From positions 357,745 through 421,744 of the forward strand of contig CALREW010000001.1 of the NCBI GenBank assembly GCA_943356415.1: a DNA stretch of 64,000 nt, read 5' to 3'. Both the position numbers and the translations under genes were made by a program. Source of the DNA: Candidatus Nomurabacteria bacterium (lineage in GTDB: Bacteria > Patescibacteriota > Minisyncoccia > Phycocordibacterales > SBAW01). Below the pieces are notes generated by a model. The model did not search any database, had not been told where the DNA came from, and was given only the letters and a program-made list of their open reading frames with translations. This document shows positions 6,673 to 43,821 of this stretch, piece after piece. Positions within the stretch are counted from its first letter, which is position 1. Each line of letters starts with the position of its first letter.

Positions 6673-8886
6673 CTAGAGGTTTCCGCCAAGCTCACGCGCA
6701 ACTTGCGAGAGCGCCTCACGGTACTGCGGAGCTTTCTGCGCCGCCAAACGGAGCGTTGCAATAGCAGAGGGGAGATTCCCGGACTCTTTTTGAGCAACCG
6801 CGTACGACACCAGTTTTTGTATATTGTCTGGATCAGCCGAAACCTTCATCTTCCATATCGCGGCGACCTTATCGAACTCCTCTGCACGCACGTACGCGGT
6901 CAGTAGCCGACTGTCGTCAATAACGTCAGTACCGAACCATCCGGTAAGGAGTTTTTCTCCTTCGTCAGCCTGTTCATTCATGATAAGTGCCGAGGCGTAG
7001 AAAATGCGCGCCTCCCTAAACTCAGGCGCAAGCTCATATGCCGCACGGGTGACCTCAACTGCTTTTTGTAGATTGCCTGTCTGTGCGTAGTTATTAAACG
7101 CCGTTTCAAACGAGATCCATTGTTTTGCAGGCGAAAGCTCGTGCGCACGCAGTAGATGCGGGAGTGCCTCACTGTACGCACCAGCCTGATCAAGGAAGGC
7201 ACCGTAGAAAAGCTCGAGACGGGCATCGTCGGGACGCTCGGCAAGCATGGCTAGACCCCGCTCCTTCGCAAGTGCGATGAAGCCCGCTCGGATATCCGGC
7301 GACACGTTTTGATTCGCACTTATTACCGCCGTTGCCTGAAACAATTGTTCAATCGCTTCTTGTCGGCCAAGTGGTCCACTCAACGCTACCGTCTTAAACG
7401 ACTCGAGGTTTTCTTTTGGGTCTTTTGCAACCTGCACACTTTGACCGAGTGAGTTCTTTCCAATCTTGGCTGAAGAAATAGCATCGATCAATTGGTGCGA
7501 TGTGGTAATGCCTGGAACATTTAGATACCAGACGGCTGCACACGTCAGTACGACGCTCGCTGCACCGGTGAGCCACAAGAAACCTCCTGTGACCGGGCGC
7601 GTGAGCACAATACTCGAAGGAAGCGGCCGACGCGTGAGTGAGTGTGCGAGCGCGAGTATAAGGAAGAAGTACATTGAACTTACCAAGTTGTCGAAGACAA
7701 AGAATGAGTGAAATGCGTACGCGGCAATAAGTCCGATAAGTATCGAACGCTCGGCGACAGTAAGTCCTGGACCTTTAAAGAATGCCCAAAACGCAAGCGC
7801 AAAGAGGCTTATAAAGGCAGCGAATGCGACAACACCTCCCGCAACGAGCCAATCAATGTACTCGCTGTGCGCACGATCGAACCACTGCTCCTGCCCATAC
7901 ATCTGCGGGTTGTAGTACTTGTTGAAGACATAACTAAAGTTTTCCTGACCCCAACCAAGTATTGGGTGTTCCTTAAATCCCTCGTACGCCATGCCCCAAA
8001 TCATGAAGCGCGCCTTGATGGTTGTTTCGGTAGCAGAAATAGTGGCGAAGCGACTTAACACTGGATTGCGCTGAACTGCCGGCAGATTGTGAACCGCAAC
8101 AAATCCGACAACAATGAGACCTATTGCAACGAGTACCCCGATAGCCCATTTCCTGAGTGCCGGACGGCTCGTATCAAAAAGCCCTATGCCAAGTGCTGCC
8201 ACAATCAAGCCTCCAAGAAGGCCGAGTGTCGCACTGCGAGTCGCTGTGTAATAGAGCGCCACCGCATCAAGCACAATCGCGAGACCGTAGAGATATTGGA
8301 CGAAGCGAGGGCCTCTCCAGCGCATCATAAGGAACAACCCAATGAATACATGGAAGAGCATGTACACCGCCATATAAATAGCATTGCCAAACGTGCCATC
8401 TACGCGTATGCCGCCCTGGTTAATAACGAAGGCGCCACTCACTTGCAAGATTCCATAGACGCTCATGCAAAACGAGGCGAAAAGTGACGTCTGCAAGAAC
8501 CGCTCCCACAACTTCTCGGTAGAAAGCAATATGGTCACCACAAAGAACCACAAACCCATGTGAAGGGTGCCTATAAGCCCTTCCATGCGCTCAAAATTGC
8601 TCCAGAAGCTCTTTATAGGGTCAACACTGCCTATTGTGGCGAGTATCGCGGCTGCCATAAGGGAAAGTACGGCAATGCCTACCCAGGAAAATCGAGGGCG
8701 GTATTCCGGGTAACGCAGGGCCAAGATAAGGGTTCCTCCGGCAAGGAGCTCAATCAAGATACGGAATGCGAAGTTCTTCCCCGTAATAAACGGGAAAAAC
8801 ATACCATCGGCCACAAAAAACGGTATAAGAAAAACGCTAAAGAGGCCGGTGAGAAGTGTTATTCTCAGCAGATTTTTAGTCTCCAT
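6673..8886 (-). CDS. O-antigen ligase (Wzy_C)-like polytopic membrane protein fused to C-terminal TPR repeats
   Basis: About 12 TM segments in the N-terminal 450 aa. The C-terminal ~250 aa are TPR-like helical repeats (AYELAPEFREARIFYASAL..). Confidence 0.6.
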   Translation of the reverse strand: METKNLLRITLLTGLFSVFLIPFFVADGMFFPFITGKNFAFRILIELLAGGTLILALRYPEYRPRFSWVGIAVLSLMAAAILATIGSVDPIKSFWSNFERMEGLIGTLHMGLWFFVVTILLSTEKLWERFLQTSLFASFCMSVYGILQVSGAFVINQGGIRVDGTFGNAIYMAVYMLFHVFIGLFLMMRWRGPRFVQYLYGLAIVLDAVALYYTATRSATLGLLGGLIVAALGIGLFDTSRPALRKWAIGVLVAIGLIVVGFVAVHNLPAVQRNPVLSRFATISATETTIKARFMIWGMAYEGFKEHPILGWGQENFSYVFNKYYNPQMYGQEQWFDRAHSEYIDWLVAGGVVAFAAFISLFALAFWAFFKGPGLTVAERSILIGLIAAYAFHSFFVFDNLVSSMYFFLILALAHSLTRRPLPSSIVLTRPVTGGFLWLTGAASVVLTCAAVWYLNVPGITTSHQLIDAISSAKIGKNSLGQSVQVAKDPKENLESFKTVALSGPLGRQEAIEQLFQATAVISANQNVSPDIRAGFIALAKERGLAMLAERPDDARLELFYGAFLDQAGAYSEALPHLLRAHELSPAKQWISFETAFNNYAQTGNLQKAVEVTRAAYELAPEFREARIFYASALIMNEQADEGEKLLTGWFGTDVIDDSRLLTAYVRAEEFDKVAAIWKMKVSADPDNIQKLVSYAVAQKESGNLPSAIATLRLAAQKAPQYREALSQVARELGGNL

Positions 8887-8938
8887 GTGGCCATACTATA
8901 CCACCATCAAGTCAGCGACCATCAACGACTGCTTATGC

Positions 8939-9418
8939 TCACGATTGAGGCGTATGAGGAAGTGGTGCCGTTTTTTCTTCGCGAAAAAGGACAAATTTGA
9001 AGAGGAGGAACGTCACGACCGAAAAAATAAGGATGACTGAAGCAATGACCACAAGGTACCAATTAACACCGACGAACGCGGTGACGTGTTTGACGACGTA
9101 CGCCTGCACATACGTCAACACAAGTGAGTAGACCAAGAAAATGACGAGTCGACGCGTATGATCACCTTTTGTTTTAAAGGTGACAGCCGTATGCAGCACA
9201 AAATTGTAGAGAAGATTCGCCGCAAGGCCAATAAGATAGGCTGAAAAATAGTGTTCGCGCCCAAATACCAGCTCAGCAAAAGCGGCCGTGATACCGAGAT
9301 TGATAGCCACTCCTGTCGCTCCAACAACAAAAAAGTGAAGATACCGCGTACGCACAAGCAGGCGATACCACCATAGTGGATTAAAAAACTCAGCGGACGG
9401 ACGGTCAGTAGTCGTCAT
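8939..9418 (-). CDS. gtrA: GtrA-family small membrane protein (polyprenyl-P-sugar flippase component)
   Basis: 159 aa, 4 TM, YRLLVRTRYLHFFVVGATGVAINLGI... typical GtrA-like fold. Confidence 0.75.
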   Translation of the reverse strand: MTTTDRPSAEFFNPLWWYRLLVRTRYLHFFVVGATGVAINLGITAAFAELVFGREHYFSAYLIGLAANLLYNFVLHTAVTFKTKGDHTRRLVIFLVYSLVLTYVQAYVVKHVTAFVGVNWYLVVIASVILIFSVVTFLLFKFVLFREEKTAPLPHTPQS

Positions 9419-11876
9419 TCACTATTCCTAGACGTTTAAGTATGGAGAGTTCATTGAACATACCACGATACTCAAAACGAATACGGTGGGCTCCTTCAGG
9501 GACTGCGACGGCCATGTATAACCCATTAGCTCGGATAAGTGGAGCGCGCGCTCCATCAACCGATACCTCCCACCCTGGAAGGTACGTCTCTGAGAGAACC
9601 AAGAATTGCTGAGACGCTGTAATAGTCTCAAAGAGATGCAGCCCGTTAGCACTGCGAACTTCTTTGATCGAGCCTCTGCCGGATACTCCTTTACAGTCCG
9701 CACAATCAAGATACACCGCTTCGTTGAAACGAAGACCTTCGTGTGCGACGAGTTCCTCAAAACTCTGATGCGACGACGGAACAACCGAAGGTGCGAAGTA
9801 ATACAGCGGAGAAGCCTTTTCGTTGAGATAGCTATAGATCACCATTCCATACGAAGACACTGAGGTCGTTGCGAGAAGTGAGAGCGCTGAGCTCTCGAGC
9901 GGAACTCCCGAAAGTACGTACCTCCCACCCATCATAGAAAGTATGTCTACCCTATCGAGCAATCGCTCCTTTCGCTCCTCGTTAGTACCTGAGCCGTATC
10001 CGGCACCCAACTCTCCCCCAATACGCTCCAGTGCCGTGAGCGTCCCACTTGGTTCGAACTGGTCATAGCCGTCTACGGAAGAAAATCTACTAAAGAGATG
10101 CATGTTGGGTGATCCCGCTTTCGCCAAAAGTTCGACCGTTGCGTCGTCTTCCTCACGCGACAGTTTATATTGCGGCGGTATTACCTTTTGAATCGCAAGC
10201 GATGGCATAAAGGAATAGAAGCGGTACTGCGTGGCTTCCTCAATCGTGACAAGCGGATTGAGAATGTTGTCTGCCCCCAACGTTGGAGAGGAGCTAAAAA
10301 CATTCCCCCATCCAGCGATGGTGACACCAAAAATCGTACACACAATAAGCATGCATGCCTGTGCTTGAAATTGGGCAACGGAACGCTTCCCATGAACAAA
10401 CAAGAGAAGTAATACGATACTCGCAATAAGAAGTGCGAGCGGAATTGCAACCGATGGCTCCGATAGGTTGAGCAATTCACGATACGCAGCAACGCCTCTG
10501 TTCACCGCATCGCTATAATGGTCAACCCTATTTTGAGCGAAGCCTGCGGTAGTAAAAAGTCTCTCCACAATCCGACCAAAAAGTGTCGGTACATATGAAC
10601 CGAGCATTCCAAAAATAACCAAACCGCCAGAGAACATGGCCGCAACTGCCGCAACAACGTAGAGGGCCATTTTAAACACGCGCTCTTTTGCCACTTCCGC
10701 AGCTCGATCAAGTCCAAAGGCACCAAGAAGCGCCAGCAAAAATGCACCAAGAAACATAAACCGGAACGGAAAGCGGAACAGTCCGATAACAGGGAGCTTG
10801 CTCAGAAGAAAGAAAATCGGTGACCATTTTATCGCCGCAAAGAATGCAAAAAGAAAAAGTACCCCAATAGCCGCAATGGTGCGGTCGTGGCCTGCCAATG
10901 AACGAATGCTCCTTGAACGTAAGGCGTTCATTCCGACCACGAGGAGTACGCCTACCCCAAGCAGTGCGAGAAGTGAGCCGACAAACAACGGTTTGCGGCC
11001 AGCAGTAACGTACGGCACGTAGAAATATGGCGGAACAAGGGCAAGAATCGCGTCACCAGGGTCAATCACTTTGAGAGTTAGCTCGTGGTAGGTCGCTTCT
11101 TCTCCTCTTGAAGTGGATGGCAAAAATTTCGCCGCAGGAAGAATCTGAGGCAACCCAACAACCACGCCGATTACCGTTGCAATGATCCACGCGCCAATTA
11201 CTTTGCAAAAACGGCGTAGATTTGTCGGCCCATCAAAGTAAAACAACTGCAGCAACACAAACAAACCCACGATAAGGAGCGCGTAAACGACCAACTGAGT
11301 GTACCCGGAGAGAATGCTCCACCCGATTCCTATTCCAGCTAACAATACGTACCTCCAGAAAAGCGTTTCATTCCGTATCATCCGCACTGCGCACAACAAC
11401 AAAAGCGGCAAAAGGAAGAGTGTACTTGCGGTAAGCGGATTGGAAAGATACCGCCAATGAAACGCGAGGAGATACGAAGGACCGACAAGCATAGCTGCGT
11501 AGCGCGATACGCCAAGTGCGCGTGCGGCAAGATACGAAGTAACGCACGTAAGTGCAACATCAATGATGAGTCGCATTTCAACACCGGATATACCTGAAAA
11601 AAAGCGGAAAATGAGTAGATTGACTGGATCAAAGAATCCACCAACCTGGCTTAGATATATAGGGAAGCCTGAATAGATGGACGGGAGCCACAAGAAAGAC
11701 TCCCCAGCATGAAGCGCCTGGCTGTAGAAAGTAAATATTGGGTAGTAGTAAACAACGACATCCGCATCATTTAAAAAAATAATCCGCCCGAACGCGATTG
11801 GCCCAAAAAAAGCAACCAGCACCAGAGCGAAGAAGCCTGCAACGAATAGGCCCGGGTATCGTTTAATGAGATTCAT
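9405..11876 (-). CDS. YfhO-family GT-C membrane glycosyltransferase
   Basis: 823 aa. N-terminal multi-TM region with an early DAD-like acidic motif (FLNDADVVVYYYP) and a large C-terminal extracytoplasmic domain. Confidence 0.75.
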   Translation of the reverse strand: MNLIKRYPGLFVAGFFALVLVAFFGPIAFGRIIFLNDADVVVYYYPIFTFYSQALHAGESFLWLPSIYSGFPIYLSQVGGFFDPVNLLIFRFFSGISGVEMRLIIDVALTCVTSYLAARALGVSRYAAMLVGPSYLLAFHWRYLSNPLTASTLFLLPLLLLCAVRMIRNETLFWRYVLLAGIGIGWSILSGYTQLVVYALLIVGLFVLLQLFYFDGPTNLRRFCKVIGAWIIATVIGVVVGLPQILPAAKFLPSTSRGEEATYHELTLKVIDPGDAILALVPPYFYVPYVTAGRKPLFVGSLLALLGVGVLLVVGMNALRSRSIRSLAGHDRTIAAIGVLFLFAFFAAIKWSPIFFLLSKLPVIGLFRFPFRFMFLGAFLLALLGAFGLDRAAEVAKERVFKMALYVVAAVAAMFSGGLVIFGMLGSYVPTLFGRIVERLFTTAGFAQNRVDHYSDAVNRGVAAYRELLNLSEPSVAIPLALLIASIVLLLLFVHGKRSVAQFQAQACMLIVCTIFGVTIAGWGNVFSSSPTLGADNILNPLVTIEEATQYRFYSFMPSLAIQKVIPPQYKLSREEDDATVELLAKAGSPNMHLFSRFSSVDGYDQFEPSGTLTALERIGGELGAGYGSGTNEERKERLLDRVDILSMMGGRYVLSGVPLESSALSLLATTSVSSYGMVIYSYLNEKASPLYYFAPSVVPSSHQSFEELVAHEGLRFNEAVYLDCADCKGVSGRGSIKEVRSANGLHLFETITASQQFLVLSETYLPGWEVSVDGARAPLIRANGLYMAVAVPEGAHRIRFEYRGMFNELSILKRLGIVNDDY

Positions 11877-37292: not shown

Positions 37293-37365
37293 GAAAATTG
37301 CACGCGCTCTGCGTGCACGCCCCAACACCCTCACAGCATACAACACCAAGATACTATGCGAAGTT

Positions 37366-37459: not shown

Positions 37460-38224
37460 AAGCTTGTCGAAAGCCCTGCAGACGCTGAGCGCGTCGGCGA
37501 ACTGCTTCGCGATCTTCTCGCGCGGACGGTTCCGAGGGCTCATCGCCGGCACAGGGACGACCTTCACGTTCAGTCCGGCGGCGATGGCTCCGAGTGCTAT
37601 CATGCCATCGAAGCCCCAGGACACCTCTTCGCCACGGGCCCGCTCGACCTCCGCGTGAATCAACATAGCTTTGTCGAGCACACACCGGAGCACATTCTTC
37701 CCCCGGAAGAGCTGAAAGCCGTGGGCGCACGAGAGGCGCAGTTTGCCGCCGCTCGTCTGCCCATAGAGTTCCGGGAAAACATCCCTGTGCATGACCTCGT
37801 CCGCGGACCCGTAAATGAGGCCGTTGGACGAGTGGCTGAAGTCGAGGTCGCCGATGACCATGTCGGCCCTTTTTTCCTCCAAGGCGCGGCAGAGGTCCCT
37901 GATCTTGCAAATGGGATGCTCCGCCGTGTCCAGGCGAACGATGGTTTCTTCGGACCCACCGCAGAGCACTGCGGTGTCATAGCCAGCGCGCAGAGCGCCA
38001 GCAAGTCCGCGGACGTGCGAGTAGACGCCGACCATACCGAAACCCTTCTTGGCGGCAACACGCGCGAGTTCGACATCTTCAGCAGGGTCGGGGCAGCCAT
38101 TGACCGCCACGATGATCCTTGTCGAGGTGTCTTTCATCTCCTTGCGCAGCTGCGCAAGGAACGAGCCTTCTTCCTCGGCGGCTTTGATAGCCTTTCCTTG
38201 GAAGTCGGGCACGACGATAATCAA
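37445..38224 (-). CDS. hypothetical protein, possibly a GT-A fold glycosyltransferase; TTG start
   Basis: GC-rich island. Starts IIVVPDFQ (GT2-like first strand). Contains GDLDFS acidic motif. Family assignment weak. Confidence 0.3.
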   Translation of the reverse strand: MIIVVPDFQGKAIKAAEEEGSFLAQLRKEMKDTSTRIIVAVNGCPDPAEDVELARVAAKKGFGMVGVYSHVRGLAGALRAGYDTAVLCGGSEETIVRLDTAEHPICKIRDLCRALEEKRADMVIGDLDFSHSSNGLIYGSADEVMHRDVFPELYGQTSGGKLRLSCAHGFQLFRGKNVLRCVLDKAMLIHAEVERARGEEVSWGFDGMIALGAIAAGLNVKVVPVPAMSPRNRPREKIAKQFADALSVCRAFDKLKLLG

Positions 38225-38322: not shown

Positions 38323-38418
38323 TCCAACGAAAAAGCCGCCCCCAGAGGGACGGCTTCTCCCAGCCTTGCGGCTGAAATGTGTGTGGGCGAACCGCGTGTG
38401 AGGTTAGTCCAGGAGCGC
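38323..38418 (-). repeat. copy B of the ~90-bp 3' element following gene 38404..39438
   Basis: See copy A. The terminator stem here carries a substitution that becomes a U-G wobble in minus-strand RNA. Confidence 0.85.
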
Positions 38419-39438
38419 GAGGATGGCTTGCGCTCCAATGGACGGATTGAGCGGCTGCAGCTCGTACTTCGGCCACTGCCGCTTAAAGAACTCGTCGAGC
38501 GGTTTGGGTTGCGCCAGCACCGGGTAGCCGCCCTGCATCATAAGCGGCGACTTCTTGAGACCCGCTTGGCGGAACAGCTCACTAGCCGTGCTCTGGTTCC
38601 AGAGCGTGAGGGCAAGCTTCCCCGCCGTTGCCGGCCGCATCAAAGTCGAACTGTAGCCGGACGCCACGCCGTCGGCGTACTGGATGATCTCGTCGGTCGG
38701 CTCGGACATCATATGGACGCGGCCGCACATCGTGAGCGGCTCGAGCACCCGGTCACACCACACGCCCCAGGTCGTCCCATCTTCCCGCAGGACATCCTTG
38801 AACTTCGGATGGAACTTCGGGATCAGGATGACACGCTGCGAGGTTTCCAGGATCGAGCTGACCAGATGACGGAGTGCCGGATCGGCATCCGGGCCACCGT
38901 CAGGATAGACGAGCAACTTGTCGCTCGCCTTCTCGCGAAGCGAGTCCATCCTCGCCTTGAGATCCGGGTTGGCCTTAACCGGTGTGATGCCGGCGAAGCC
39001 AACCTGTACGATCGAGACTTGTCTGCCGGGCCACCGCTGCCGGACGAGCGTGTCGCTCACCGCGTCGATGGTGAGGTAGAGATCGGCGGGCTGCTCAGCC
39101 CGCTTTTCCACACCCCAGTAGTCCACAGCATGCACCAGAGGAACATGGTGCGAGAAGCTGCGTGCCTGCCGATCGAATTCGGCCTCCATCACGCGCGGCG
39201 AAGAGATGCCGGTGACGAGCGCGTCGGGGTTGAGCTTGACGAGGATGTCGCGAGGGGAATCGCCTTCGTCGACGAGTTGGTAGGGCTGCAGGCTCTCGTT
39301 GAGCTTTGCCGTCGCCCTGCCGTCCTTCTCGATGAGCAGATGTACTTCATGGCCGAGGCCGCGAAGTTCCTGGACCATGGGGAGCAGCACATTGGCTGGC
39401 CCCATGTCCCGAATGGCAACAACGATTCTCTTTTTCAA
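38404..39438 (-). CDS. GT-B fold protein with HP(K) motif; paralog of 21571..22605; TTG start
   Basis: FHPKFKD ... YADGVASGYSSTLMRPATAGKLAL. AGAGGTG upstream of the TTG start. Confidence 0.4.
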   Translation of the reverse strand: MKKRIVVAIRDMGPANVLLPMVQELRGLGHEVHLLIEKDGRATAKLNESLQPYQLVDEGDSPRDILVKLNPDALVTGISSPRVMEAEFDRQARSFSHHVPLVHAVDYWGVEKRAEQPADLYLTIDAVSDTLVRQRWPGRQVSIVQVGFAGITPVKANPDLKARMDSLREKASDKLLVYPDGGPDADPALRHLVSSILETSQRVILIPKFHPKFKDVLREDGTTWGVWCDRVLEPLTMCGRVHMMSEPTDEIIQYADGVASGYSSTLMRPATAGKLALTLWNQSTASELFRQAGLKKSPLMMQGGYPVLAQPKPLDEFFKRQWPKYELQPLNPSIGAQAILALLD

Positions 39439-39516: not shown

Positions 39517-40587
39517 CTACGCTTTCGTAGTCCGAGCTGTATCAATCACATCCTCACAATATCTTTGTATATATTCCTTTTCAGTTTGGTACGGGTACGA
39601 ATGCAGAACTCCTGTGCGGGGACCTTCGGTACTCCATGTTTGAAGTGCTATAGAAAAATCTTGTTGCGCCACAACAGCTGCTCCCGCTTCACGTGCCACG
39701 CCAACATCGGTTGAAAGCACCGGCACGCCTGCCGCGAGCGCTTCGATAATAACCATGCCGTACCCTTCATACTCCGATGGCACAAGTACGATATCTGCAA
39801 GTTGGTAGTACGGAGCTGAATCAGTATCGCCTTCAAAGAAAACACTGCTCTGCACACCACGCTCTTTTGCTAAACGTTCGAGTGAGCGCCTCTCACTTCC
39901 TTCTCCCAAAATAATGAGGCACGAGTCGGGGATATGCGCGCGAGCAAATGCATCAACGGCAAGCGAAACATTTTTCTCTGCTTCAAGACGCGAAACAACA
40001 AGACATACTGTTTTGTACTGTGAAAATCGCGCAGTGAGTTCAACAGGAGCTTGCGCATTTTTAAAGCGTTCGATGTCAACAGAAATCGGAAGTACGCTAA
40101 TAGGCGCATTCACATTGAAATGCTCGAGCACATCACGCTTAGTACGTTCCGAGACTACACGAATTCCTGAAGCGTAGGAGAGCACTCTCCGCGCAATATG
40201 CATCCGCACTTTATTGAGTATTGAGCGTCTGAATGCAGGAGAAAAAAGATCGGTGTGTATTTGCACATGAAGCGGCACGGCAAAGTATTTCGCAAGCATG
40301 AGTCCAACAAGACCTGATTCGAACGGATCCTGTACCGATATAACGCTTGGTTCTGGAAGTTTCTTTCCAATACGCACCGCATCAGTGACGTAGAGGAGTC
40401 GCGATAAGGAGTTCGTTGGATACACCTCCAGTGATCCGTCTTTTACCTCACTCAAGCCCTGCGACGCGCGAGAAAAGACAATGATGTGAGAAGCCTCGAA
40501 ACACTGCGCGTATGCCCGCACTCGCTTCCCCGCCCGACTGGCAGGATCAAGAACTGTTCGATCACTTCCTATCGTGAGGACACGCAT
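39517..40587 (-). CDS. GT4 glycosyltransferase
   Basis: VLVPSEYEGYGMVIIEALAAGVPV (EX7E). Confidence 0.8.
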   Translation of the reverse strand: MRVLTIGSDRTVLDPASRAGKRVRAYAQCFEASHIIVFSRASQGLSEVKDGSLEVYPTNSLSRLLYVTDAVRIGKKLPEPSVISVQDPFESGLVGLMLAKYFAVPLHVQIHTDLFSPAFRRSILNKVRMHIARRVLSYASGIRVVSERTKRDVLEHFNVNAPISVLPISVDIERFKNAQAPVELTARFSQYKTVCLVVSRLEAEKNVSLAVDAFARAHIPDSCLIILGEGSERRSLERLAKERGVQSSVFFEGDTDSAPYYQLADIVLVPSEYEGYGMVIIEALAAGVPVLSTDVGVAREAGAAVVAQQDFSIALQTWSTEGPRTGVLHSYPYQTEKEYIQRYCEDVIDTARTTKA

Positions 40588-41585
40588 GTGGTAATCGCTT
40601 TAAGAAAGTCATCGGCAACCGCGTTCCAATCCCTCGTAAAGGTAAAGGCTTTGATCCGTCGCTCTATATCGGCATACACCTTCGGATCAAGGAGTGACTC
40701 GATTGCACGCGTAAGCGCTTCTTTATCTTGGGTATCAACAAAAATACCAGTGTTTCCAAGTCGCTCTGAAATGCCGGTGTCTTTCGTGCAAATAAACGGT
40801 TTGCCGTAAAGCACCGCATCAATGATCACGTTGGGCGAAACATCACTCACCGACGCAAGAACAACCGCATAGCAACTTGCGATGCGCGCACGATGTGCGT
40901 CTGCAGGAAGTGCGTGAAGATCGAGCGATACGTCGTCGTACTTCTTAACAAGTTCGTGGAATATCTGCATAAGGAGTCCCTCCTGTTTGAGCTTCATCGG
41001 CCGTCCCGCCGCAACAAAGTTTTTCTCTGTCGGTGGCGTCGAGGGACGTCGCGCGGGATATTCATTCTCGATAACGGTTGCTTGGGTAAGCGGAACGTCA
41101 TACACTCGCCGCCACAACTCAATCTGCCAACGCGAATTACACGCAAGCACATCTGCGTGCTTCAGAAGAAAGTGTGTACCACGATACACGATGCGCTCCT
41201 TCAAATTCCATTTGTCGCGTCGAGTGTCGTAAAATTCTGACAACTTCACCATGTCTCCCGTGCGTTCAACGTATTGTTCCCACAGGAAATCTCCTCCTAC
41301 ACGGACAATAAATGGTCTCCCCAAAATCTTTGCCGCAATAAGCGAAGGGATACCGACACTCCACGTATCAAATGCCAAAACGACATCAGCCCCAATAAGG
41401 GGCAAAAGTACTCGAAACAAATAGACGACATGTCTTACCCCGATAGGTAGTGCTAATTCGAGGCGCGTATAAGGAACTGTTGTGCATTTGATACCACGCT
41501 CGGAAAATCGTTCAGCAAGCTTCGCTGCATAGCGAGCGCCGCCTCCCATTTCATGTGCAAGTCCGGTTGAAAAAATGACTCGCAT
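40569..41585 (-). CDS. GT4/GT-B glycosyltransferase
   Basis: GT-B C-terminal domain. Start set to the internal Met (MRVIFSTG...). Confidence 0.7.
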   Translation of the reverse strand: MRVIFSTGLAHEMGGGARYAAKLAERFSERGIKCTTVPYTRLELALPIGVRHVVYLFRVLLPLIGADVVLAFDTWSVGIPSLIAAKILGRPFIVRVGGDFLWEQYVERTGDMVKLSEFYDTRRDKWNLKERIVYRGTHFLLKHADVLACNSRWQIELWRRVYDVPLTQATVIENEYPARRPSTPPTEKNFVAAGRPMKLKQEGLLMQIFHELVKKYDDVSLDLHALPADAHRARIASCYAVVLASVSDVSPNVIIDAVLYGKPFICTKDTGISERLGNTGIFVDTQDKEALTRAIESLLDPKVYADIERRIKAFTFTRDWNAVADDFLKAITTCVSSR

Positions 41586-41593
41586 AGCGTGAA

Positions 41594-42622
41594 TTACTGC
41601 TTGCCCTTCTCGAGAGAGAGGAGGAAACTTTTGTTCTCCAAGAACCAATCGACGAAGCGATCAACACCTGTCTCAATCGAGACTTTCGGTTCGTACCCGA
41701 GATCACGCTTCGCTTTCGAACAATCAGCGCGCATTTCCTTAACATCCCCCATCGGCATTGGTACCAGTTTTTTCTTTGTTACTTTGCCCATACGCTGCTC
41801 GATAAGCGAAATATATTTCTTGAGCGGCACAAGCTCAGAGCCTCCAAGATTATAGATACGATAGGAGCTCGTTGGTTTGATATCAATCAGTTTTAGAATT
41901 GAGTCAACAACATCACTGACATAGGTGAAGCATCGCTTCATATTGCCGTAGTTATACAAAGAGAGCGTTTCGCCGTTCATAATCTGTTTTGAGAATATAA
42001 AGAGCGACATGTCAGGTCTCCCCCACGGACCATAGACTGTAAAAAACCGAAGTCCGATAGTTTCGATGCCGAAGAGATGGTTATATGCGCGTGCAAGCAC
42101 TTCAACCCCCCGCTTTGATGCTGCGTAGAGCGATATGGGCGAATTAACATCACTCTTCTCCTCCGCAAGAGCTCCAGCATTATTCTTGCCGTAGACCGAG
42201 CTCGAAGAAGCGTAGATCACGCGCTTGAGCTTAAGACGACGCACCACTTCAAAGACGTTTAGTGAACCGATGTAATTGCTCTCAGCGTACGCCCACGGAT
42301 CGATAAGTGAGTAGCGAACCCCCGCCTGCGCAGCGAGGTGCACAATCTCGTCCGGCTTTTCTTTCTTTACGATTGCTTCAAGATCTTTGTAGACCGTGAT
42401 GCTCTTTTTATAAAACGTGAACTTCGGGTGTCGTTTGAGAAACGAGAGTCGCTTGTGCTTCATACGCACGTCGTAGTAATCCGAAATGCAGTCAACACCT
42501 GCCACCGAATATCCTTGAGAAAGGAGTTCTTCGCAAAGATGATATCCAATGAAACCGGCAGCGCCGGTCACCAAAATATGCTTGTTTTTAGGTGTCTTTT
42601 TGGCCTTTAACATACGCATCAA
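41594..42622 (-). CDS. UDP-glucuronate 4-epimerase-type NAD-dependent epimerase (SDR extended family)
   Basis: ILVTGAAGFIGYHL, YAASK, and the GAE-typical RFFTVYGPWGRPDM. Confidence 0.8.
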   Translation of the reverse strand: MMRMLKAKKTPKNKHILVTGAAGFIGYHLCEELLSQGYSVAGVDCISDYYDVRMKHKRLSFLKRHPKFTFYKKSITVYKDLEAIVKKEKPDEIVHLAAQAGVRYSLIDPWAYAESNYIGSLNVFEVVRRLKLKRVIYASSSSVYGKNNAGALAEEKSDVNSPISLYAASKRGVEVLARAYNHLFGIETIGLRFFTVYGPWGRPDMSLFIFSKQIMNGETLSLYNYGNMKRCFTYVSDVVDSILKLIDIKPTSSYRIYNLGGSELVPLKKYISLIEQRMGKVTKKKLVPMPMGDVKEMRADCSKAKRDLGYEPKVSIETGVDRFVDWFLENKSFLLSLEKGKQ

Positions 42623-43821
42623 CCTACCACAGATGCACTAGGCGAACCACCGCGCAGAATTTCTCGCATCTCCTCGGAAATCAGCTCCCACCCGTACCGC
42701 TCACGAACTAAACGGAGTCCCCCTTCAGCAATACGATTCGCCTCGATAGGCTGTTCAATAATGCGAGAAATTGCCGAGACAACTGCCCCGGCATTATTAG
42801 GTAGAACAACAAATCCAGTCTCTTGGTCACGGAGAAAATCCGGTATACCTCCAACACTTGTCCCAATAGTGGGCAACCCGGAAGCCATTGCTTCAATAAA
42901 TGAGATGCCCTGCCCTTCCGAGCGTGAGGCGCGGATAAAGCTATCGGCTGACGCCAAGTAATCAGGCAAGTCTTTCTGGGATATCTCGCCGAGGAAGGTA
43001 ACGCGGTCGGTGACGCCACGGGTACGTGCGAGCACTTCAAGCTGCGTGCGCTCTGGCCCGTCACCCGCTATGGCGAAACGAACTCGCGAAGGAAGTTCCC
43101 CCATCGCTTCAATAACAATATCTACGCCATTTTTTGGAACGAGACGTGACACGGTGATGAGCAGGTGTTCATCCTCTTTTGCATTCATCTGTTGTCTACG
43201 CTCACTGCGGCGCGCCGGCGCAATAGGTTTTCCAAAGCGACTAAGATCGACGCCGTTTGGAACAACTTTCACTCGCCGCGCGCCCATACGCTTTGCCCAA
43301 TCTCCCAAAAAGTTTGAGAGCGTCTGGACCGCGTCAGCACGAGTGAATGCCGCTCTAAACAATGGTCCAAAAATGCGCATCTGTCGCTCGATGTGCTCCG
43401 GCGGGTCTCCTTCTTGGAGCGTGAGCAAATAAAAAACCTTCGAGTGGAAACGCTTAAAGAGGCCTGCCGGTACACCCGCTGAATGTGCCATCATTCCCCA
43501 CACAATGTTGTATTGGTACGTTCGATTGAGCGACCGAGCTTTAAGATACGCAGCAATCTGAAACCAGATTTTTAATACACGGAAAAATGGTTTGCGTAAG
43601 TCAGCAATGCTCGGACTTGGAAGAGAAGGTCCAATGCGATGGACCAACACATTCCCCTCTCTCGATATGCGCGGCAGTTTTGAGTCATAGCGCAGCGTCA
43701 CCATATGAAACTCGAACTCGTCGCTGAGACGGTCCGTGAGTTCTTTGAGGGCCACTTCAGCCCCGCCGACGAAGCGAGGAAAGTAGGCCATCGAAATAAT
43801 GAGTACTTTTGGTTTATTCAT
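42619..43821 (-). CDS. GT4 glycosyltransferase
   Basis: RSEGQGISFIEAMASGLPTIGT. Confidence 0.8.
   Translation of the reverse strand: MNKPKVLIISMAYFPRFVGGAEVALKELTDRLSDEFEFHMVTLRYDSKLPRISREGNVLVHRIGPSLPSPSIADLRKPFFRVLKIWFQIAAYLKARSLNRTYQYNIVWGMMAHSAGVPAGLFKRFHSKVFYLLTLQEGDPPEHIERQMRIFGPLFRAAFTRADAVQTLSNFLGDWAKRMGARRVKVVPNGVDLSRFGKPIAPARRSERRQQMNAKEDEHLLITVSRLVPKNGVDIVIEAMGELPSRVRFAIAGDGPERTQLEVLARTRGVTDRVTFLGEISQKDLPDYLASADSFIRASRSEGQGISFIEAMASGLPTIGTSVGGIPDFLRDQETGFVVLPNNAGAVVSAISRIIEQPIEANRIAEGGLRLVRERYGWELISEEMREILRGGSPSASVVG

What the first reader, a model, noticed from the sequence alone, without database searches (positions are those of the whole stretch)
6673..43821. ~37-kb single-strand cell-surface glycosylation super-locus with a Gtr-type three-component system and three GT-C enzymes
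Seen in sequence: a GtrA flippase subunit, a GtrB-like GT2, two YfhO-family GT-C enzymes and one ArnT/PMT-like GT-C lie together, alongside a Glf-like mutase, Wzx flippase, O-antigen-ligase-TPR protein, five GT4s, a GT47-like protein, tagD/tagF, a UGDH-like protein plus UDP-GlcA 4-epimerase, six SAM methyltransferases and a B12-radical SAM. They are nearly all co-directional with tiny or overlapping intergenic gaps. Established knowledge: GtrA/GtrB/GT-C systems transfer sugars from polyprenyl-P-sugars outside the membrane (O-antigen, LTA and S-layer/pilin glycosylation). Inference: this is an unusually elaborate, heavily methylated, acidic (uronate, nonulosonate, glycerol-phosphate) surface glycan or protein-glycosylation system. 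The adjacent LTD surface protein (43849-45339) is a candidate glycosylation target.
Basis: partly seen in the sequence, partly recalled or inferred. Interest (0 to 1): 0.55.

Follow-up and report, generated by a model that had tools for sequence, protein, structure and literature searches.

The report
Variable surface-glycan island in a CPR bacterium
The 37-kb stretch is a real cluster of 33 cell-surface sugar-polymer genes, but it belongs to an ultra-small Parcubacteria (CPR) bacterium and is a patchwork of separately exchangeable gene cassettes at a conserved chromosomal site, not one super-operon.

Summary
The gene inventory is largely confirmed. The locus holds 33 genes, 29 on the minus strand. 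They include a Wzy_C-TPR protein, GtrA, two YfhO-like proteins and one PMT_2 GT-C. There are also two GT2s, a UGM-like flavoenzyme, NeuB with a CMP-sugar synthetase, Wzx, TagF plus a divergent TagF-like protein, five GT4s, a GT47-like protein and a B12-radical-SAM enzyme.

Corrections:
- Only four class-I methyltransferase domains are present, not six.
- The "GtrB-like" GT2 has no transmembrane helix.
- The epimerase and "TagD" cannot be assigned a substrate.
- Three strong terminators and four plus-strand genes imply at least 10 transcription units.

New findings:
- SecA is 69% identical to Candidatus Adlerbacteria, so the host is a Parcubacteria/CPR bacterium.
- Relatives keep a compact backbone: TrwB-like ATPase, (LTD), (GT4), Wzy_C-TPR, MurB, SecA. 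Only 1-2 genes separate TrwB from Wzy_C-TPR there, against about 36 kb here.
- Sub-modules recur independently elsewhere. The 8-gene GtrA/GT-C cassette stands alone in another contig.

Best reading: a mosaic, lineage-variable glycan island feeding a conserved Wzy_C-TPR ligase or polymerase, with extracytoplasmic GT-C decoration. It is a new variant of known kinds and of moderate interest.

The parts
6673..8886 (-). Wzy_C (O-antigen ligase/polymerase-type) membrane protein with C-terminal TPR domain. Conserved backbone gene and candidate ligase/polymerase for the island's products.
   Evidence: Pfam Wzy_C 75.5 bits plus TPR. About 11 TM segments. Found next to MurB/SecA in 42 of 80 SecA-anchored Parcubacteria loci.
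8939..9418 (-). GtrA-family small membrane protein, the putative polyprenyl-P-sugar flippase. First gene, by coordinate, of the 8-gene GT-C cassette.
   Evidence: Pfam GtrA_DPMS_TM 43.2 bits. 72-79% identical homologues sit in the same position in L082, L083 and L084.
9405..11876 (-). YfhO-like GT-C glycosyltransferase 1.
   Evidence: Pfam YfhO matches the C-terminal 60 aa only, 33.3 bits. AF2 pLDDT 90.1. Foldseek best matches are ArnT (E 1.6e-8), AftD, AftA, Pmt4, STT3, Emb and PglB. D39 in a DxDxxxYYYP loop after TM1 is near-invariant.
11873..13270 (-). PMT_2-type GT-C glycosyltransferase.
   Evidence: Pfam PMT_2 31.9 bits. Seven or more TM segments. Conserved in L082 and L084 at 49-52% identity.
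13251..13985 (-). Class-I SAM methyltransferase (MT1).
   Evidence: Pfam Methyltransf_23/11. Conserved in the cassette in L082 and L084.
13989..14726 (-). Soluble 245-aa GT2, a candidate polyprenyl-P-sugar synthase or furanosyltransferase.
   Evidence: Pfam Glycos_transf_2 93 bits. No TM helix. Among PDB hits only DPMS aligns over residues 6-188. Weak full-length PpgS match. 64-73% identical in L082 and L084.
14719..16146 (-). Long-type UDP-galactopyranose-mutase-like flavoenzyme (PRK07208 family).
   Evidence: NCBIfam NF005548 656.6 bits, above the cut-off of 389. PDB best matches are the A. fumigatus and T. cruzi UGMs, E 5e-22. GGH, R182, W315/Y317, R327, Y419, R447, Y453 and N457 equivalents align.
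16143..17741 (-). GT2 fused to a class-I methyltransferase. The GT2 domain resembles polyprenyl-phosphate hexose synthases.
   Evidence: Pfam GT2 115.7 bits plus Methyltransf_11. NCBIfam full-length similarity to AglJ, PpgS and Dol-P-hexose transferase, all below cut-offs. 73% identical in L082.
17746..20235 (-). YfhO-like GT-C glycosyltransferase 2.
   Evidence: Pfam YfhO 30.2 bits. 24% identity over the full length to YfhO-like 1, E 1e-36. 52% identical homologue in L082.
20318..21418 (-). NeuB-family nonulosonic acid synthase.
   Evidence: Pfam NeuB 268.8 bits. NCBIfam NeuB_NnaB 323.9 (below 399.65) and PseI 217. PDB best matches are SpsE and NeuB.
21571..22605 (+). Member of an unnamed GT-B-fold family (paralogue 1) with high GC3 (0.76). 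Candidate nonulosonate transferase or NDP-sugar 2-epimerase.
   Evidence: No Pfam or NCBIfam hit. 26% identical to 38404-39438, E 9e-21. Family members lie in NeuB cassettes at the same site in L084, L087 and L090.
22667..23305 (-). Histidine-phosphatase superfamily protein, a candidate sugar-phosphate phosphatase of the nonulosonate branch.
   Evidence: Pfam His_Phos_1 106.8 bits. Co-occurs with NeuB and the CMP-synthetase in L019.
23260..23979 (-). CMP-nonulosonate synthetase-like cytidylyltransferase.
   Evidence: Pfam CTP_transf_3 100 bits. NCBIfam PseF 159 bits, below the 205.7 cut-off.
24052..24393 (+). Cupin resembling the C-terminal domain of type-II phosphomannose isomerase.
   Evidence: NCBIfam GMP_PMI residues 361-467, 75.8 bits. 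MannoseP_isomer occurs in 3 of 33 relatives at this site.
24378..25790 (-). Divergent TagB/TagF-family (Glyphos_transf) protein.
   Evidence: No Pfam hit itself. 65 homologues were found, most carrying PF04464 and several named CDP-glycerol glycerophosphotransferase in Paceibacterota. 41% identical homologue next to TagF in L019.
25813..27195 (-). Wzx-type (MOP) flippase.
   Evidence: Pfam Polysacc_synt 76.3 bits. The same family sits upstream of Wzy_C-TPR in 10 of 33 relatives.
27362..28346 (+). Cytidylyl/adenylyltransferase (TagD/RfaE-II-like, 27362-27853) plus a 178-aa pyruvate-kinase/HpcH-like protein (27810-28346).
   Evidence: Pfam CTP_transf_like 66.9 bits and a weak HpcH hit. NCBIfam RfaE domain II 107 and TagD 79.7, both below cut-offs. 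The TagF / PK-like / TagD-like trio is conserved in L084 at 53-56% identity.
28356..29585 (-). TagF/TarF-type CDP-polyol phosphotransferase.
   Evidence: Pfam Glyphos_transf 204.9 bits. NCBIfam TarF 128 bits, below cut-off.
29607..30644 (-). Class-I methyltransferase MT2 (29607-30305) and a SemiSWEET-like PQ-loop protein (30369-30644).
   Evidence: Pfam. NCBIfam SemiSWEET_2 39.9 bits, below cut-off.
30830..30849 (-). Strong intrinsic-terminator-like hairpin directly after the radical-SAM gene.
   Evidence: Stem of 8 G-C pairs followed by a T-rich tail.
30879..32549 (-). B12-binding radical-SAM enzyme (class-B methylase-like) with high GC3 (0.78).
   Evidence: Pfam Radical_SAM plus B12-binding. 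NCBIfam HpnJ/PhpK-like, below cut-offs. 58% identical homologue next to GT47 and GT4 in L015.
32550..37349 (-). GT4a (32550-33689), GT47-like (33686-34756), methyltransferase MT3 (34758-35387), GT4b (35384-36481) and a 304-aa UGDH-like protein lacking the C-terminal domain (36435-37349).
   Evidence: Pfam. Gaps of -47 to +1 nt between genes. UGDH-like homologues of similar length in L055 and L062, 47-48% identical.
37366..37457 (-). Copy 1 of a ~95-nt repeat: the last 4 codons of the gene plus a classic terminator (GAAGCCGTCCC-TCTG-GGGACGGCTTTTT), after gene 37445-38224.
37445..38224 (-). Orphan 259-aa protein with high GC3 (0.77).
   Evidence: No Pfam, NCBIfam or PDB match. GC3.
38323..38416 (-). 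Copy 2 of the same terminator repeat (95-97% identical), after gene 38404-39438.
38404..39438 (-). Member of the unnamed GT-B-fold family (paralogue 2) with high GC3 (0.79).
   Evidence: AF2 pLDDT 90.5. Foldseek best matches are BshA, HepE and UDP-GlcNAc 2-epimerases, TM 0.5-0.6. 754 family representatives at E<=1e-3. Invariant HPK and DYW motifs.
39517..43821 (-). GT4c (39517-40587), GT4d (40569-41648), SDR epimerase/dehydratase (41594-42622) and GT4e (42619-43821). GT4e, and perhaps the SDR, belong to the conserved backbone.
   Evidence: Pfam. A GT4e homologue (47%) and an SDR (28%) lie directly upstream of Wzy_C-TPR in L002.
43849..47249 (-). Backbone pair: LTD/PKD membrane-anchored surface protein with a Ser/Thr-rich linker (43849-45339), and a TrwB/HerA-like ATPase (45351-47249).
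   Evidence: Pfam. Sequence. TrwB is 68-79% identical in six relatives; LTD lies beside it in L045 and L065.

Best explanation
The region is a mosaic, lineage-variable surface-glycan island in the chromosome of a Parcubacteria (Paceibacteria / Candidatus Adlerbacteria-like, CPR) bacterium. It sits at a conserved site between a TrwB-like ATPase / LTD protein / GT4 on one side and Wzy_C-TPR / murB / secA on the other. It consists of at least four separable modules.

- M1 (8939-20235): an 8-gene extracytoplasmic glycosylation cassette. One or two GT2 enzymes load a sugar onto polyprenyl phosphate. A long-type UGM-like flavoenzyme probably supplies a furanose. GtrA flips the lipid-linked sugar. 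Three GT-C enzymes transfer it outside the membrane. Two methyltransferase domains modify it.
- M2 (20318-27195): a nonulosonic-acid branch. It holds NeuB, a phosphatase, a CMP-synthetase, a PMI-type cupin, a GT-B-fold protein of an unnamed family and a TagF-like enzyme, together with the Wzx flippase.
- M3 (27362-29585): a nucleotidyltransferase, a PK-like protein and TagF, forming a polyol-phosphate or phospho-sugar branch.
- M4 (29607-41648): a cytoplasmic assembly and tailoring set. It holds four GT4s, a GT47-like protein, two methyltransferases, a B12-radical-SAM enzyme, a UGDH-like protein, a SemiSWEET and two single-gene high-GC cassettes.

Inferred mechanism. A repeat unit is built on undecaprenyl phosphate at the inner face and flipped by Wzx. 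The conserved Wzy_C-TPR enzyme then polymerises it or ligates it to a wall- or membrane-anchored acceptor. M1 decorates the polymer at the outer face.

What is shown: gene families, folds, synteny, modularity and island status. What is inferred: the order of steps, the sugars and the acceptor.
For: Host.
- The best SecA matches are all Patescibacteria/Parcubacteria, with 69% identity to Candidatus Adlerbacteria.

Island status.
- Six relatives carry the TrwB-like ATPase (68-79% identical). In the four of them that also keep Wzy_C-TPR (L002, L037, L045, L053), it lies 1-2 genes from Wzy_C-TPR.
- In the window the same two genes are 36.5 kb apart.
- Wzy_C-TPR lies next to murB/secA in 42 of 80 loci.

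Variable content at the site (four ORFs upstream of Wzy_C-TPR in 33 relatives).
- Methyltransferases in 15, Wzx in 10, GT2 in 5, GT4 in 5, epimerases in 4, NeuB in 3.

Modularity.
- L082 has all eight M1 genes in the same order (46-75% identical), alone between TatD/YdjM and VanY/SSB/EF-P/RecA.
- L084 has M3 and most of M1 beside Wzy_C-TPR/MurB/SecA.
- L019 has TagF-like / TagF / CMP-synthetase / phosphatase / NeuB beside Wzy_C-TPR.
- L015 has GT4 / radical-SAM / GT47.
- L087 and L090 have a different NeuB cassette with the same GT-B family at the same site.

Composition and transcription.
- Four genes have GC3 of 0.76-0.79 against about 0.5 for the rest.
- Two of them carry the same 95-nt terminator repeat, and the radical-SAM gene has its own hairpin.

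Folds and families.
- GT-C fold; UGM signature; GT2_MT resembles AglJ/PpgS/Dol-P-hexose synthases; GtrA.
- The published definition of multi-component transmembrane glycosylation systems allows a soluble GT plus a separate membrane protein (PMC8035078).
Against: - No initiating phosphoglycosyltransferase (WecA/TagO or WbaP/PglC type), no chain-length regulator and no LCP ligase was found among the scanned proteins of the window. The Wzx/Wzy-type pathway is therefore incomplete locally.
- The GT2 proteins lack the two C-terminal TM helices of GtrB/CsbB. All specific NCBIfam matches for them are below curated cut-offs.
- There is no direct evidence of which sugars are made or what the acceptor is.
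- No integrase, tRNA or flanking direct repeats mark the island. The 'insertion' is inferred only from comparison with relatives at 60-69% SecA identity, and differential loss is equally possible.
- The promoter and terminator scans are consensus matches only. There are no transcript data.
Confidence: 0.6

Rival explanations
1. First reader's view. The 37 kb form one integrated, essentially co-transcribed super-locus. All its genes cooperate to build a single, very elaborate, heavily methylated, acidic glycan.
For: 29 of 33 genes are co-directional and many overlap or are 4 nt or less apart. All gene families are glycan-related. There is one Wzx and one Wzy_C protein for the whole region.
Against: - Four plus-strand genes create convergent and divergent junctions.
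- There are three strong terminators.
- The modules occur separately in other genomes.
- GC3 is heterogeneous.
- The strand bias is shared by the flanking housekeeping genes.
Confidence: 0.12
2. The island is a general protein O-glycosylation system. Wzy_C-TPR acts as a PglL/TfpO-like oligosaccharyltransferase, and its TPR domain recruits protein substrates. It transfers the Wzx-flipped glycan onto surface proteins such as type IV pilins or the adjacent LTD protein. The GT-C enzymes add further sugars to proteins, as PMT-type enzymes do.
For: - The Wzy_C family includes PglL/PilO O-oligosaccharyltransferases. This rests on established knowledge, plus the Pfam hit.
- The periplasmic loop carries an R...W and an AH-S-E-Y-I motif resembling the WaaL/PglL catalytic Arg/His (sequence; the motif is recalled from memory).
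- The organism has no LPS acceptor, being a monoderm CPR bacterium.
- The LTD protein has a 35-residue Ser/Thr-rich linker and a C-terminal membrane anchor.
- A PMT_2-type GT-C is present.
- Pilin glycosylation in CPR is suspected but unexplored (PMC11623550).
Against: - TagF-type enzymes and YfhO/GtrA systems characteristically act on wall polymers (PMC8035078).
- LTD adjacency is explained by the conserved TrwB-LTD pairing.
- No pilin gene lies in the window.
- No test can discriminate a Wzy_C ligase, polymerase or O-OTase from sequence. The PDB sequence search hit only the TPR domain.
Confidence: 0.22
3. The apparent island is an assembly chimera. High-GC segments from another organism were joined into a Parcubacteria contig.
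For: Four genes have GC of about 0.62 against about 0.50 for their neighbours. The source is a metagenome assembly.
Against: - The junction NeuB / high-GC gene (21571-22605) is present in another assembled contig carrying the identical YfhO-like protein (L001).
- The identical YfhO-like protein also lies on a 425-kb NCBI contig.
- Homologues of the high-GC genes sit in the same kind of locus in other Parcubacteria and are GC-elevated there too.
- The high-GC genes are single, complete ORFs with their own terminators, embedded between normal-GC genes.
Confidence: 0.03

Closest known systems
Multi-component (three-component) transmembrane glycosylation systems: GtrA/GtrB/GtrV of Shigella phages; CsbB/GtcA/YfhO, GtlA/GtlB and GacI/J/K/L of Gram-positive bacteria (review PMC8035078)
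   Same: A GT2 enzyme, a GtrA-family small membrane protein and a multi-spanning GT-C enzyme (YfhO and PMT_2 types) are encoded together. The likely logic is the same: polyprenyl-P-sugar is made inside, flipped, and transferred outside onto an existing polymer.
   Different: - Three GT-C enzymes and two GT2s share one GtrA in a single 8-gene cassette.
- Neither GT2 has the two C-terminal TM helices of GtrB/CsbB.
- One GT2 is fused to a methyltransferase.
- The cassette includes a UGM-like flavoenzyme and a separate methyltransferase.
- The host is a CPR bacterium.
- The YfhO Pfam model matches only the C-terminal 60 residues.
Mycobacterial arabinogalactan machinery (Glf, GlfT1/2 GT2, Rv3789 GtrA-like, PpgS + Rv3779, AftA-D/Emb GT-C). 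Comparison from established knowledge.
   Same: The same set of families is combined: a pyranose-furanose mutase, GT2 enzymes, a TM-less polyprenyl-P-sugar synthase (PpgS-like), a GtrA-like protein and several GT-C transferases. The best structural matches of the YfhO-like model include AftD, AftA and EmbA/B.
   Different: There is no DprE1/E2 epimerase pair and no sequence-level orthology. The mutase is of the long, eukaryote-like type rather than bacterial Glf. The cassette is small and portable rather than a large essential cluster.
Hypervariable O-antigen / capsule loci between conserved flanking genes (E. coli galF-gnd, pneumococcal dexB-aliA) and the 'glycosylation islands' of streamlined free-living bacteria such as SAR11 HVR2. 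Comparison from established knowledge.
   Same: A conserved chromosomal site has conserved flanks and gene content that differs between relatives. The composition is mosaic. It includes Wzx and a Wzy_C-family enzyme.
   Different: The anchor is a conserved Wzy_C-TPR gene next to murB-secA rather than sugar-nucleotide genes. No initiating transferase or Wzz is present. Variation was seen here between genera or families (SecA 60-69% identical), not yet between strains.
Wall teichoic acid pathway (TagD/TagF, TarF/TarL)
   Same: A Glyphos_transf enzyme (204.9 bits), a second divergent family member and a cytidylyltransferase-fold enzyme are encoded together.
   Different: No TagO/TagA/TagB primers, no TagGH-specific exporter and no LCP ligase are present. 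The nucleotidyltransferase scores higher against RfaE domain II than against TagD, and both are below cut-off. A conserved PK/HpcH-like 178-aa partner has no counterpart in Tag pathways.
Nonulosonic acid pathways (NeuB/NeuA; PseI/PseF; the KDN-9-phosphate route of Bacteroides thetaiotaomicron and eukaryotes)
   Same: A NeuB-family synthase and a CMP-sugar synthetase are adjacent, and a phosphatase is associated with them.
   Different: No NeuC and no PseB/C/H/G or Leg enzymes are present. NeuB and the synthetase fall below the NeuB, PseI and PseF cut-offs. The phosphatase belongs to the histidine-phosphatase superfamily, whereas L087/L090 have a HAD phosphatase. A PMI-type cupin suggests a mannose-6-P-derived (KDN-like) substrate, which is untested.

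Membership tests
Multi-component transmembrane glycosylation system (Gtr / CsbB-GtcA-YfhO type) | GT-A-fold (GT2) enzyme that makes a polyprenyl-phosphate sugar and is membrane-linked or has a membrane partner | tested here: inconclusive
   Two GT2 domains are present (93 and 115.7 bits). The 245-aa GT2 has 0 TM helices and the fusion protein has one hydrophobic segment. Full-length similarity to AglJ, PpgS and Dol-P-hexose transferase is below the curated cut-offs. Among PDB hits only DPMS aligns over residues 6-188.
Multi-component transmembrane glycosylation system (Gtr / CsbB-GtcA-YfhO type) | GtrA-family small membrane protein with 3-4 TM helices | tested here: met
   Pfam GtrA_DPMS_TM 43.2 bits against a cut-off of 26.1. 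159 aa with 3-4 hydrophobic segments.
Multi-component transmembrane glycosylation system (Gtr / CsbB-GtcA-YfhO type) | Multi-spanning GT-C-fold glycosyltransferase | tested here: met
   AF2 model of 9405-11876 has pLDDT 90.1. Foldseek best matches are ArnT, AftD, AftA, Pmt4, STT3, Emb and PglB. The paralogue 17746-20235 aligns over its full length. PMT_2 scores 31.9 bits against a cut-off of 26.1 for 11873-13270.
Multi-component transmembrane glycosylation system (Gtr / CsbB-GtcA-YfhO type) | Components encoded together, and co-localisation conserved | tested here: met
   Gaps of -20 to +4 nt across 8939-20235. The same eight genes appear in the same order in L082, and six of them in L084.
Multi-component transmembrane glycosylation system (Gtr / CsbB-GtcA-YfhO type) | Transfer of a sugar from C55-P-sugar to a wall polymer outside the membrane | not testable with these tools
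   Requires biochemistry or genetics.
YfhO family (PF09586) | Match to the family model along the protein | tested here: inconclusive
   Scores of 33.3 and 30.2 bits exceed the gathering cut-off of 28.5. However, only profile positions about 756-827 of 835 (the C-terminal domain) match. There is no NCBIfam hit and no PDB sequence hit.
GT-C superfamily | Conserved acidic residue(s) in the first extracytoplasmic loop | tested here: met
   D39 is at least 90% conserved within a DxDxxxYYYP motif just after TM1, across 40 homologues.
UDP-galactopyranose mutase (Glf/UGM) | Family-model membership (Pfam GLF, TIGR00031) | tested here: not met
   GLF scores 19.5 bits against a cut-off of 26.3. TIGR00031 scores 36.1 against 303.75. 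The protein instead belongs to NF005548 (PRK07208.1-4, 'hypothetical protein') with 656.6 bits against a cut-off of 389.
UDP-galactopyranose mutase (Glf/UGM) | Similarity to solved UGMs and conservation of active-site residues (GGH loop, R182, R327, Y419, R447, Y453, N457 of A. fumigatus UGM; residue roles recalled from the literature) | tested here: met
   The top 14 PDB hits are all long-type UGMs, E 5e-22 to 3e-19. In the printed alignment all the listed residues align with identical residues.
Wzx/Wzy-dependent polysaccharide pathway | Wzx flippase and Wzy_C-family polymerase/ligase | tested here: met
   Polysacc_synt 76.3 bits. Wzy_C 75.5 bits.
Wzx/Wzy-dependent polysaccharide pathway | Initiating phosphoglycosyltransferase and chain-length regulator in the locus | tested here: not met
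   No Glycos_transf_4, Bac_transf or Wzz hit in any protein of the window that was scanned. These could be encoded elsewhere in the genome.
Wall teichoic acid (Tag/Tar) pathway | TagF/TarF-type CDP-glycerol glycerophosphotransferase | tested here: met
   Glyphos_transf 204.9 bits. However, TarF scores 128 bits against a cut-off of 550, so this is family-level membership only.
Wall teichoic acid (Tag/Tar) pathway | TagD glycerol-3-phosphate cytidylyltransferase; TagO/A/B primers; TagGH exporter; LCP ligase | tested here: not met
   TagD model scores 79.7 bits against a cut-off of 165.4, lower than RfaE domain II at 107. No TagO/A/B or LCP is found. The ABC-2 pair at 818-2357 is generic, DrrAB/NodIJ-like.
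Nonulosonic acid biosynthesis | NeuB-family synthase plus CMP-sugar synthetase | tested here: met
   NeuB 268.8 bits. CTP_transf_3 100.3 bits.
Nonulosonic acid biosynthesis | Assignment to the Neu5Ac, Pse or Leg sub-pathway (equivalog models; NeuC or PseB/C/H/G) | tested here: not met
   NeuB_NnaB 323.9 against 399.65; PseI 217 against 340; PseF 159 against 205.7. No upstream-pathway enzymes were found.

The most novel reading that the evidence does not exclude
Across Parcubacteria, the conserved Wzy_C-TPR gene beside murB-secA is the single general ligase of a serotype-like, hypervariable surface glycan. The genes for this glycan are swapped as cassettes at one chromosomal hot spot. In these ultra-small episymbionts the glycan would be the main determinant of host and phage recognition. 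Within it, the portable 8-gene cassette would build furanose-containing, methylated side chains entirely outside the membrane, from lipid-linked donors. This would be an arabinan-like logic with a UGM-like enzyme, not previously described outside the Mycobacteriales.
Probability: 0.25. Interest if true: 0.7.

Novelty: new variant of a known kind. Interest (0 to 1): 0.5.

Why it matters
CPR/Patescibacteria have tiny genomes and live attached to other cells, and their surface chemistry is almost unknown. One paper read here calls their glycosylation processes unexplored (PMC11623550).

This organism spends about 33 genes in one locus on surface glycans. The contig carrying the identical YfhO-like protein is 425 kb. 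The locus sits at a site that is conserved in position but variable in content across Parcubacteria. That pattern suggests strong diversifying selection on the cell surface.

The findings give concrete handles for study: the conserved Wzy_C-TPR anchor, a portable GT-C cassette, and an uncharacterised GT-B family tied to NeuB. These can be used for comparative genomics, for predicting host or phage specificity, and for heterologous biochemistry.

Tried and rejected
- Mobile-element signatures. No tRNA, no Rfam family including a cobalamin riboswitch, no integrase among the scanned ORFs, and no direct repeats at the island borders. A classical integrative island is therefore not supported.
- Canonical GtrB. 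Rejected for the 245-aa GT2 because it has no TM helix.
- Truncated UGDH as a pseudogene. Rejected because homologues of the same length recur in L055 and L062.
- Plus-strand ORFs 37298-38314 and 38377-39507 (long ORFs in the high-GC patches). Rejected in favour of the minus-strand ORFs on codon-position GC and homology.
- PDB sequence searches. These found nothing for the YfhO-like protein, the PMT_2 protein and the 259-aa orphan, and only TPR hits for Wzy_C-TPR.
- Literature. Searches on CPR or Parcubacteria with nonulosonic acid, teichoic acid, O-antigen ligase or hypervariable islands found no prior description. This is absence in the searchable library only.
- KDN-type route. The idea (Man-6-P + PEP, then dephosphorylation) is suggested by the cupin, the phosphatase and the absence of NeuC. 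It could not be tested.
- ABC-2 pair at 818-2357. Considered as a TagGH-like exporter, but it is generic.

Full report
**1. What is in the sequence**

ORF listing and Pfam/NCBIfam scans give a continuous map of 33 genes between 6673 and 43821.

- Wzy_C+TPR, GtrA, two YfhO-like proteins and one PMT_2 membrane protein.
- A 245-aa GT2, an FAD enzyme, and a GT2-methyltransferase fusion.
- NeuB, a CTP_transf_3 cytidylyltransferase, and Wzx.
- A cytidylyltransferase-fold protein and TagF.
- A B12-binding radical-SAM enzyme, five GT4s and a GT47-like protein.
- A UGDH-like protein and an SDR epimerase/dehydratase. The LTD/PKD protein lies just outside, at 43849-45339.

Corrections:
- There are four class-I methyltransferase domains, not six.
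- The UGDH-like protein (304 aa) lacks the C-terminal domain.
- The SDR cannot be assigned to UDP-GlcA 4-epimerase. RmlB, GalE and TviC models all score below their cut-offs.
- The 'TagD' scores higher against RfaE domain II than against TagD, again below cut-off.

In three GC-rich patches the long ORFs on the two strands compete. Codon-position GC and homology select 21571-22605 (plus strand), 37445-38224 (minus) and 38404-39438 (minus).

**2. Whose genome this is**

The 80 best SecA relatives in the GTDB species set are dominated by Patescibacteria; only a handful of the weakest matches carry other labels. The best is a Candidatus Adlerbacteria MAG at 69%, followed by Paceibacterota, Kaiserbacteria and Nomurabacteria. 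The identical YfhO-like protein lies on a 425,570-bp NCBI contig and on ENA/Logan contigs.

The locus therefore belongs to a Parcubacteria-type CPR bacterium. Such organisms have genomes of roughly a megabase or less (established knowledge). This changes the significance of a 37-kb glycan locus.

**3. A conserved site with variable content**

I ran tblastn with all window proteins against the SecA-anchored loci.
- Wzy_C-TPR, (MurB), SecA is a widely conserved arrangement. Wzy_C-TPR is present in 42 of 80 loci. Many of the rest end too close to SecA to tell.
- Six relatives also carry the TrwB-like ATPase at 68-79% identity.
- In L002 the order is Mur ligase, RsmI, TrwB, SDR, GT4 (47% identical to 42619-43821), Wzy_C-TPR, MurB, SecA.
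- In L037, L045 and L053 one gene separates TrwB from Wzy_C-TPR. In L045 that gene is an LTD protein. L065 shows the same TrwB-LTD pairing but has no Wzy_C-TPR hit.
- In the window the same two anchors are 36.5 kb apart.

I also took a Pfam census of the four ORFs immediately upstream of Wzy_C-TPR in 33 relatives. It found methyltransferases (15), Wzx-type flippases (10), GT2 (5), GT4 (5), epimerases (4), FkbM methyltransferases (4), NeuB (3) and PMI cupins (3).

So the site generally holds glycan genes, but different ones in different lineages. Relative to L002 and L037, the liv operon (47277-54904) is a second insertion.

**4. Modules**

A metagenome scan with the YfhO-like protein found two informative contigs.
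- L082 contains YfhO2, GT2-MT, FAD enzyme, GT2, MT, PMT_2, YfhO1 and GtrA in the same order (46-75% identity). There the cassette stands alone between TatD/YdjM and VanY/SSB/EF-P/sigma/RecA/FtsK. It is therefore a self-contained, portable cassette.
- L084 is another Parcubacterium with 63% SecA identity. It has six of these genes directly beside Wzy_C-TPR, MurB and SecA. They are preceded by TagF, the PK-like protein and the nucleotidyltransferase (53-56% identical).

Other loci carry other pieces:
- L019 has TagF-like, TagF, CMP-synthetase, phosphatase and NeuB beside Wzy_C-TPR.
- L015 has GT4, radical-SAM (58%) and GT47.
- L087 and L090 have a different NeuB cassette at the same site. It holds an aminotransferase, AKR, SDR, carbamoyltransferase, HAD phosphatase and an ABC exporter, plus the same unnamed 340-aa protein family.

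The 33-gene set is not conserved. The site and the sub-modules are.

**5. Individual components**

- *YfhO-like proteins.* Pfam matches only their C-terminal 60 residues. An AF2 model built on 40 homologues has pLDDT 90.1. Its best PDB matches are all GT-C enzymes: ArnT (E 1.6e-8), AftD, AftA, Pmt4, STT3, EmbA/B and PglB. An aspartate in a DxD loop after TM1 is nearly invariant.
- *FAD enzyme.* It belongs to NF005548 (656 bits), a family with no assigned function. Its best solved relatives are the long-type UGMs of Aspergillus and Trypanosoma (E 5e-22). In the printed alignment the GGH loop and the equivalents of R182, W315/Y317, R327, Y419, R447, Y453 and N457 are identical. The residue roles are recalled from the UGM literature. 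A pyranose-furanose mutase activity is likely.
- *245-aa GT2.* It has no TM helix. The fusion GT2 aligns along its length with AglJ, PpgS and Dol-P-hexose transferases, below cut-off. The review of these systems explicitly allows a soluble GT with a separate membrane partner (PMC8035078). Mycobacterial PpgS is a precedent (my own knowledge).
- *470-aa unknown (24378-25790).* It is a divergent TagB/TagF-family member, because most of its 65 homologues carry PF04464.
- *Two 344-aa paralogues.* They are 26% identical and have no Pfam or NCBIfam model. A word-based search found 6 relatives. A full HMMER profile search found 754 representatives. The AF2 model has pLDDT 90.5 and a GT-B fold. The nearest matches are GT4 enzymes and UDP-GlcNAc 2-epimerases at TM 0.5-0.6. 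An invariant H-P-K motif and the recurrent NeuB neighbourhood suggest a CMP-ulosonate transferase or a NeuC-like epimerase. I could not separate the two.
- *NeuB and the cytidylyltransferase.* They fall below the Neu5Ac, Pse and PseF equivalog cut-offs. No NeuC, Pse or Leg upstream enzymes are present. A phosphatase and a PMI-type cupin are, which suggests a KDN-like 9-phosphate route. This is inference only.

**6. Transcription and composition**

- Of the 33 genes, 29 are on the minus strand. So are most flanking housekeeping genes, and cumulative GC skew declines monotonically. Co-direction is a regional replication-strand bias.
- Four plus-strand genes create convergent and divergent junctions.
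- The radical-SAM gene is followed by a hairpin with 8 G-C pairs.
- A 95-nt direct repeat (95-97% identical) follows both 37445-38224 and 38404-39438. It comprises the last four codons plus a textbook terminator.
- Together these imply at least 10 transcription units.
- The same two genes, plus 21571-22605 and the radical-SAM gene, have GC3 of 0.76-0.79 against about 0.5 for their neighbours.
- Their homologues are also GC-elevated in other genomes. That pattern is unexplained.

**7. How it most likely works**

Shown: the families, folds, modularity and island status.

Inferred:
1. Nucleotide- and CMP-activated precursors are made by the SDR, the UGDH-like protein, the UGM-like enzyme, the NeuB branch and the nucleotidyltransferase.
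2. GT4, GT47 and GT-B enzymes and the TagF-type enzymes assemble a unit on undecaprenyl phosphate. The initiating enzyme is encoded elsewhere.
3. Methyltransferases and the radical-SAM enzyme tailor it.
4. Wzx flips it.
5. The conserved Wzy_C-TPR protein polymerises or ligates it.
6. The GT2 / GtrA / three-GT-C cassette adds further sugars at the outer face. These are possibly furanoses, and possibly methylated.

The acceptor is unknown. I favour a wall- or membrane-anchored polymer, because TagF and YfhO/GtrA systems act on such polymers. Protein O-glycosylation through a PglL-like action of Wzy_C-TPR is a serious rival. The LTD protein has a Ser/Thr-rich linker. However, it sits beside TrwB in relatives that lack the island, so its adjacency carries no weight.

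**8. Comparison and novelty**

The closest known kinds are:
[quoted passage not shown] - variable O-antigen or capsule loci between conserved flanks;
- Tag-type and nonulosonate pathways.

None is matched at the equivalog level.

The new elements are:
- the CPR host;
- the Wzy_C-TPR / murB / secA anchored variable site;
- the portable cassette with three GT-Cs, a long-type UGM-like enzyme and a GT2-methyltransferase fusion;
- the unnamed GT-B family tied to NeuB.

Searches of the held literature found no description of this.

I rate it a new variant of known kinds, with interest 0.5. It is a solid and informative locus for CPR surface biology, but its logic is not surprising to a glycobiologist.

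**9. Limits**

- There are no transcript, glycan or strain-level data.
- Relatives compared are distant (SecA at most 69% identical), so insertion versus differential loss cannot be decided.
- Two fold libraries were unavailable.
- The promoter and terminator scans are consensus matches only.

Noticed in passing
window 47277-56235: A complete liv-type branched-chain amino-acid ABC system lies between RsmI and the TrwB-like ATPase. It has two ATPases, two permeases and three periplasmic binding proteins, and is accompanied by a DUF4015 glycosyl-hydrolase-like gene. In the closest relative L002, RsmI is directly followed by TrwB. L037 has only DUF4015 there. The liv operon therefore looks like a second lineage-specific insertion in a CPR genome.
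   Followed up: partly
window 21571-22605, 30879-32549, 37445-38224, 38404-39438; L084:58-885, L087:10001-11026, L015:684-2159: Four genes have GC of about 0.62 and GC3 of 0.76-0.79, inside a locus with GC3 of about 0.5. Homologues of the GT-B family and of the radical-SAM gene are also 6-8 GC points above their surroundings in other Parcubacteria genomes. Recent transfer from a GC-rich donor would explain one genome, but not the same offset in several. This is unexplained.
   Followed up: partly
window 37366-37457 and 38323-38416: A 95-nt direct repeat (95-97% identical) comprises the last four codons plus an intrinsic terminator. It follows two unrelated adjacent high-GC genes, as if single-gene cassettes share a common 3' module. 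A promoter-like site (TTGATT-17-TATTAT) lies at 38289-38261 on the minus strand.
   Followed up: partly
window 38404-39438 and 21571-22605; P0002-P0006: This is an uncharacterised GT-B-fold protein family of about 340 aa with no Pfam or NCBIfam model. It has 754 cluster representatives at E<=1e-3 and invariant DYW and HPK motifs. It is repeatedly encoded in NeuB cassettes upstream of Wzy_C-TPR in Parcubacteria.
   Followed up: yes
window 27810-28346; L084:4515-5039: A 178-aa protein shows weak similarity to part of the pyruvate-kinase / HpcH TIM barrel. It is conserved (54% identical) between a TagD/RfaE-II-like nucleotidyltransferase and TagF in two genomes. It may be a missing step in making the activated substrate of the TagF-type enzyme.
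   Followed up: no
window 43849-47249; L045, L065, L002, L037, L053, L058: The TrwB/HerA/T4CP-like ATPase is very conserved (68-79% identity, more than SecA). It is often paired with an LTD-domain membrane protein. The LTD domain also weakly matches the N-terminus of the extracellular nuclease ExeM. This may be a DNA-uptake or surface-export device unrelated to the glycan island.
   Followed up: no
window 36435-37349; L055:2219-3067, L062:2977-3837: This UDP-glucose-dehydrogenase-like protein is only about 285-304 aa, with the N-terminal and central domains but no C-terminal UDP-binding domain. It is conserved at that length in other Parcubacteria. It is therefore a distinct short family rather than a pseudogene.
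   Followed up: partly
window 58039-59800: This GC-rich stretch (about 0.60) has long ORFs on both strands (58802-59611 minus, 58889-59794 plus) and a 234-aa ORF. None has a Pfam or NCBIfam match. It resembles the high-GC patches inside the island.
   Followed up: no
window 30369-30644: A 91-aa, three-helix PQ-loop (SemiSWEET-like) protein is encoded inside the glycan locus. It may be a sugar transporter supplying an organism with little sugar biosynthesis.
   Followed up: no
window 59877-62050: A Mur ligase is followed by a 249-aa protein with an ATE_C / FemXAB-like acetyltransferase-fold domain. This suggests peptidoglycan stem-peptide branching in this CPR bacterium.
   Followed up: no
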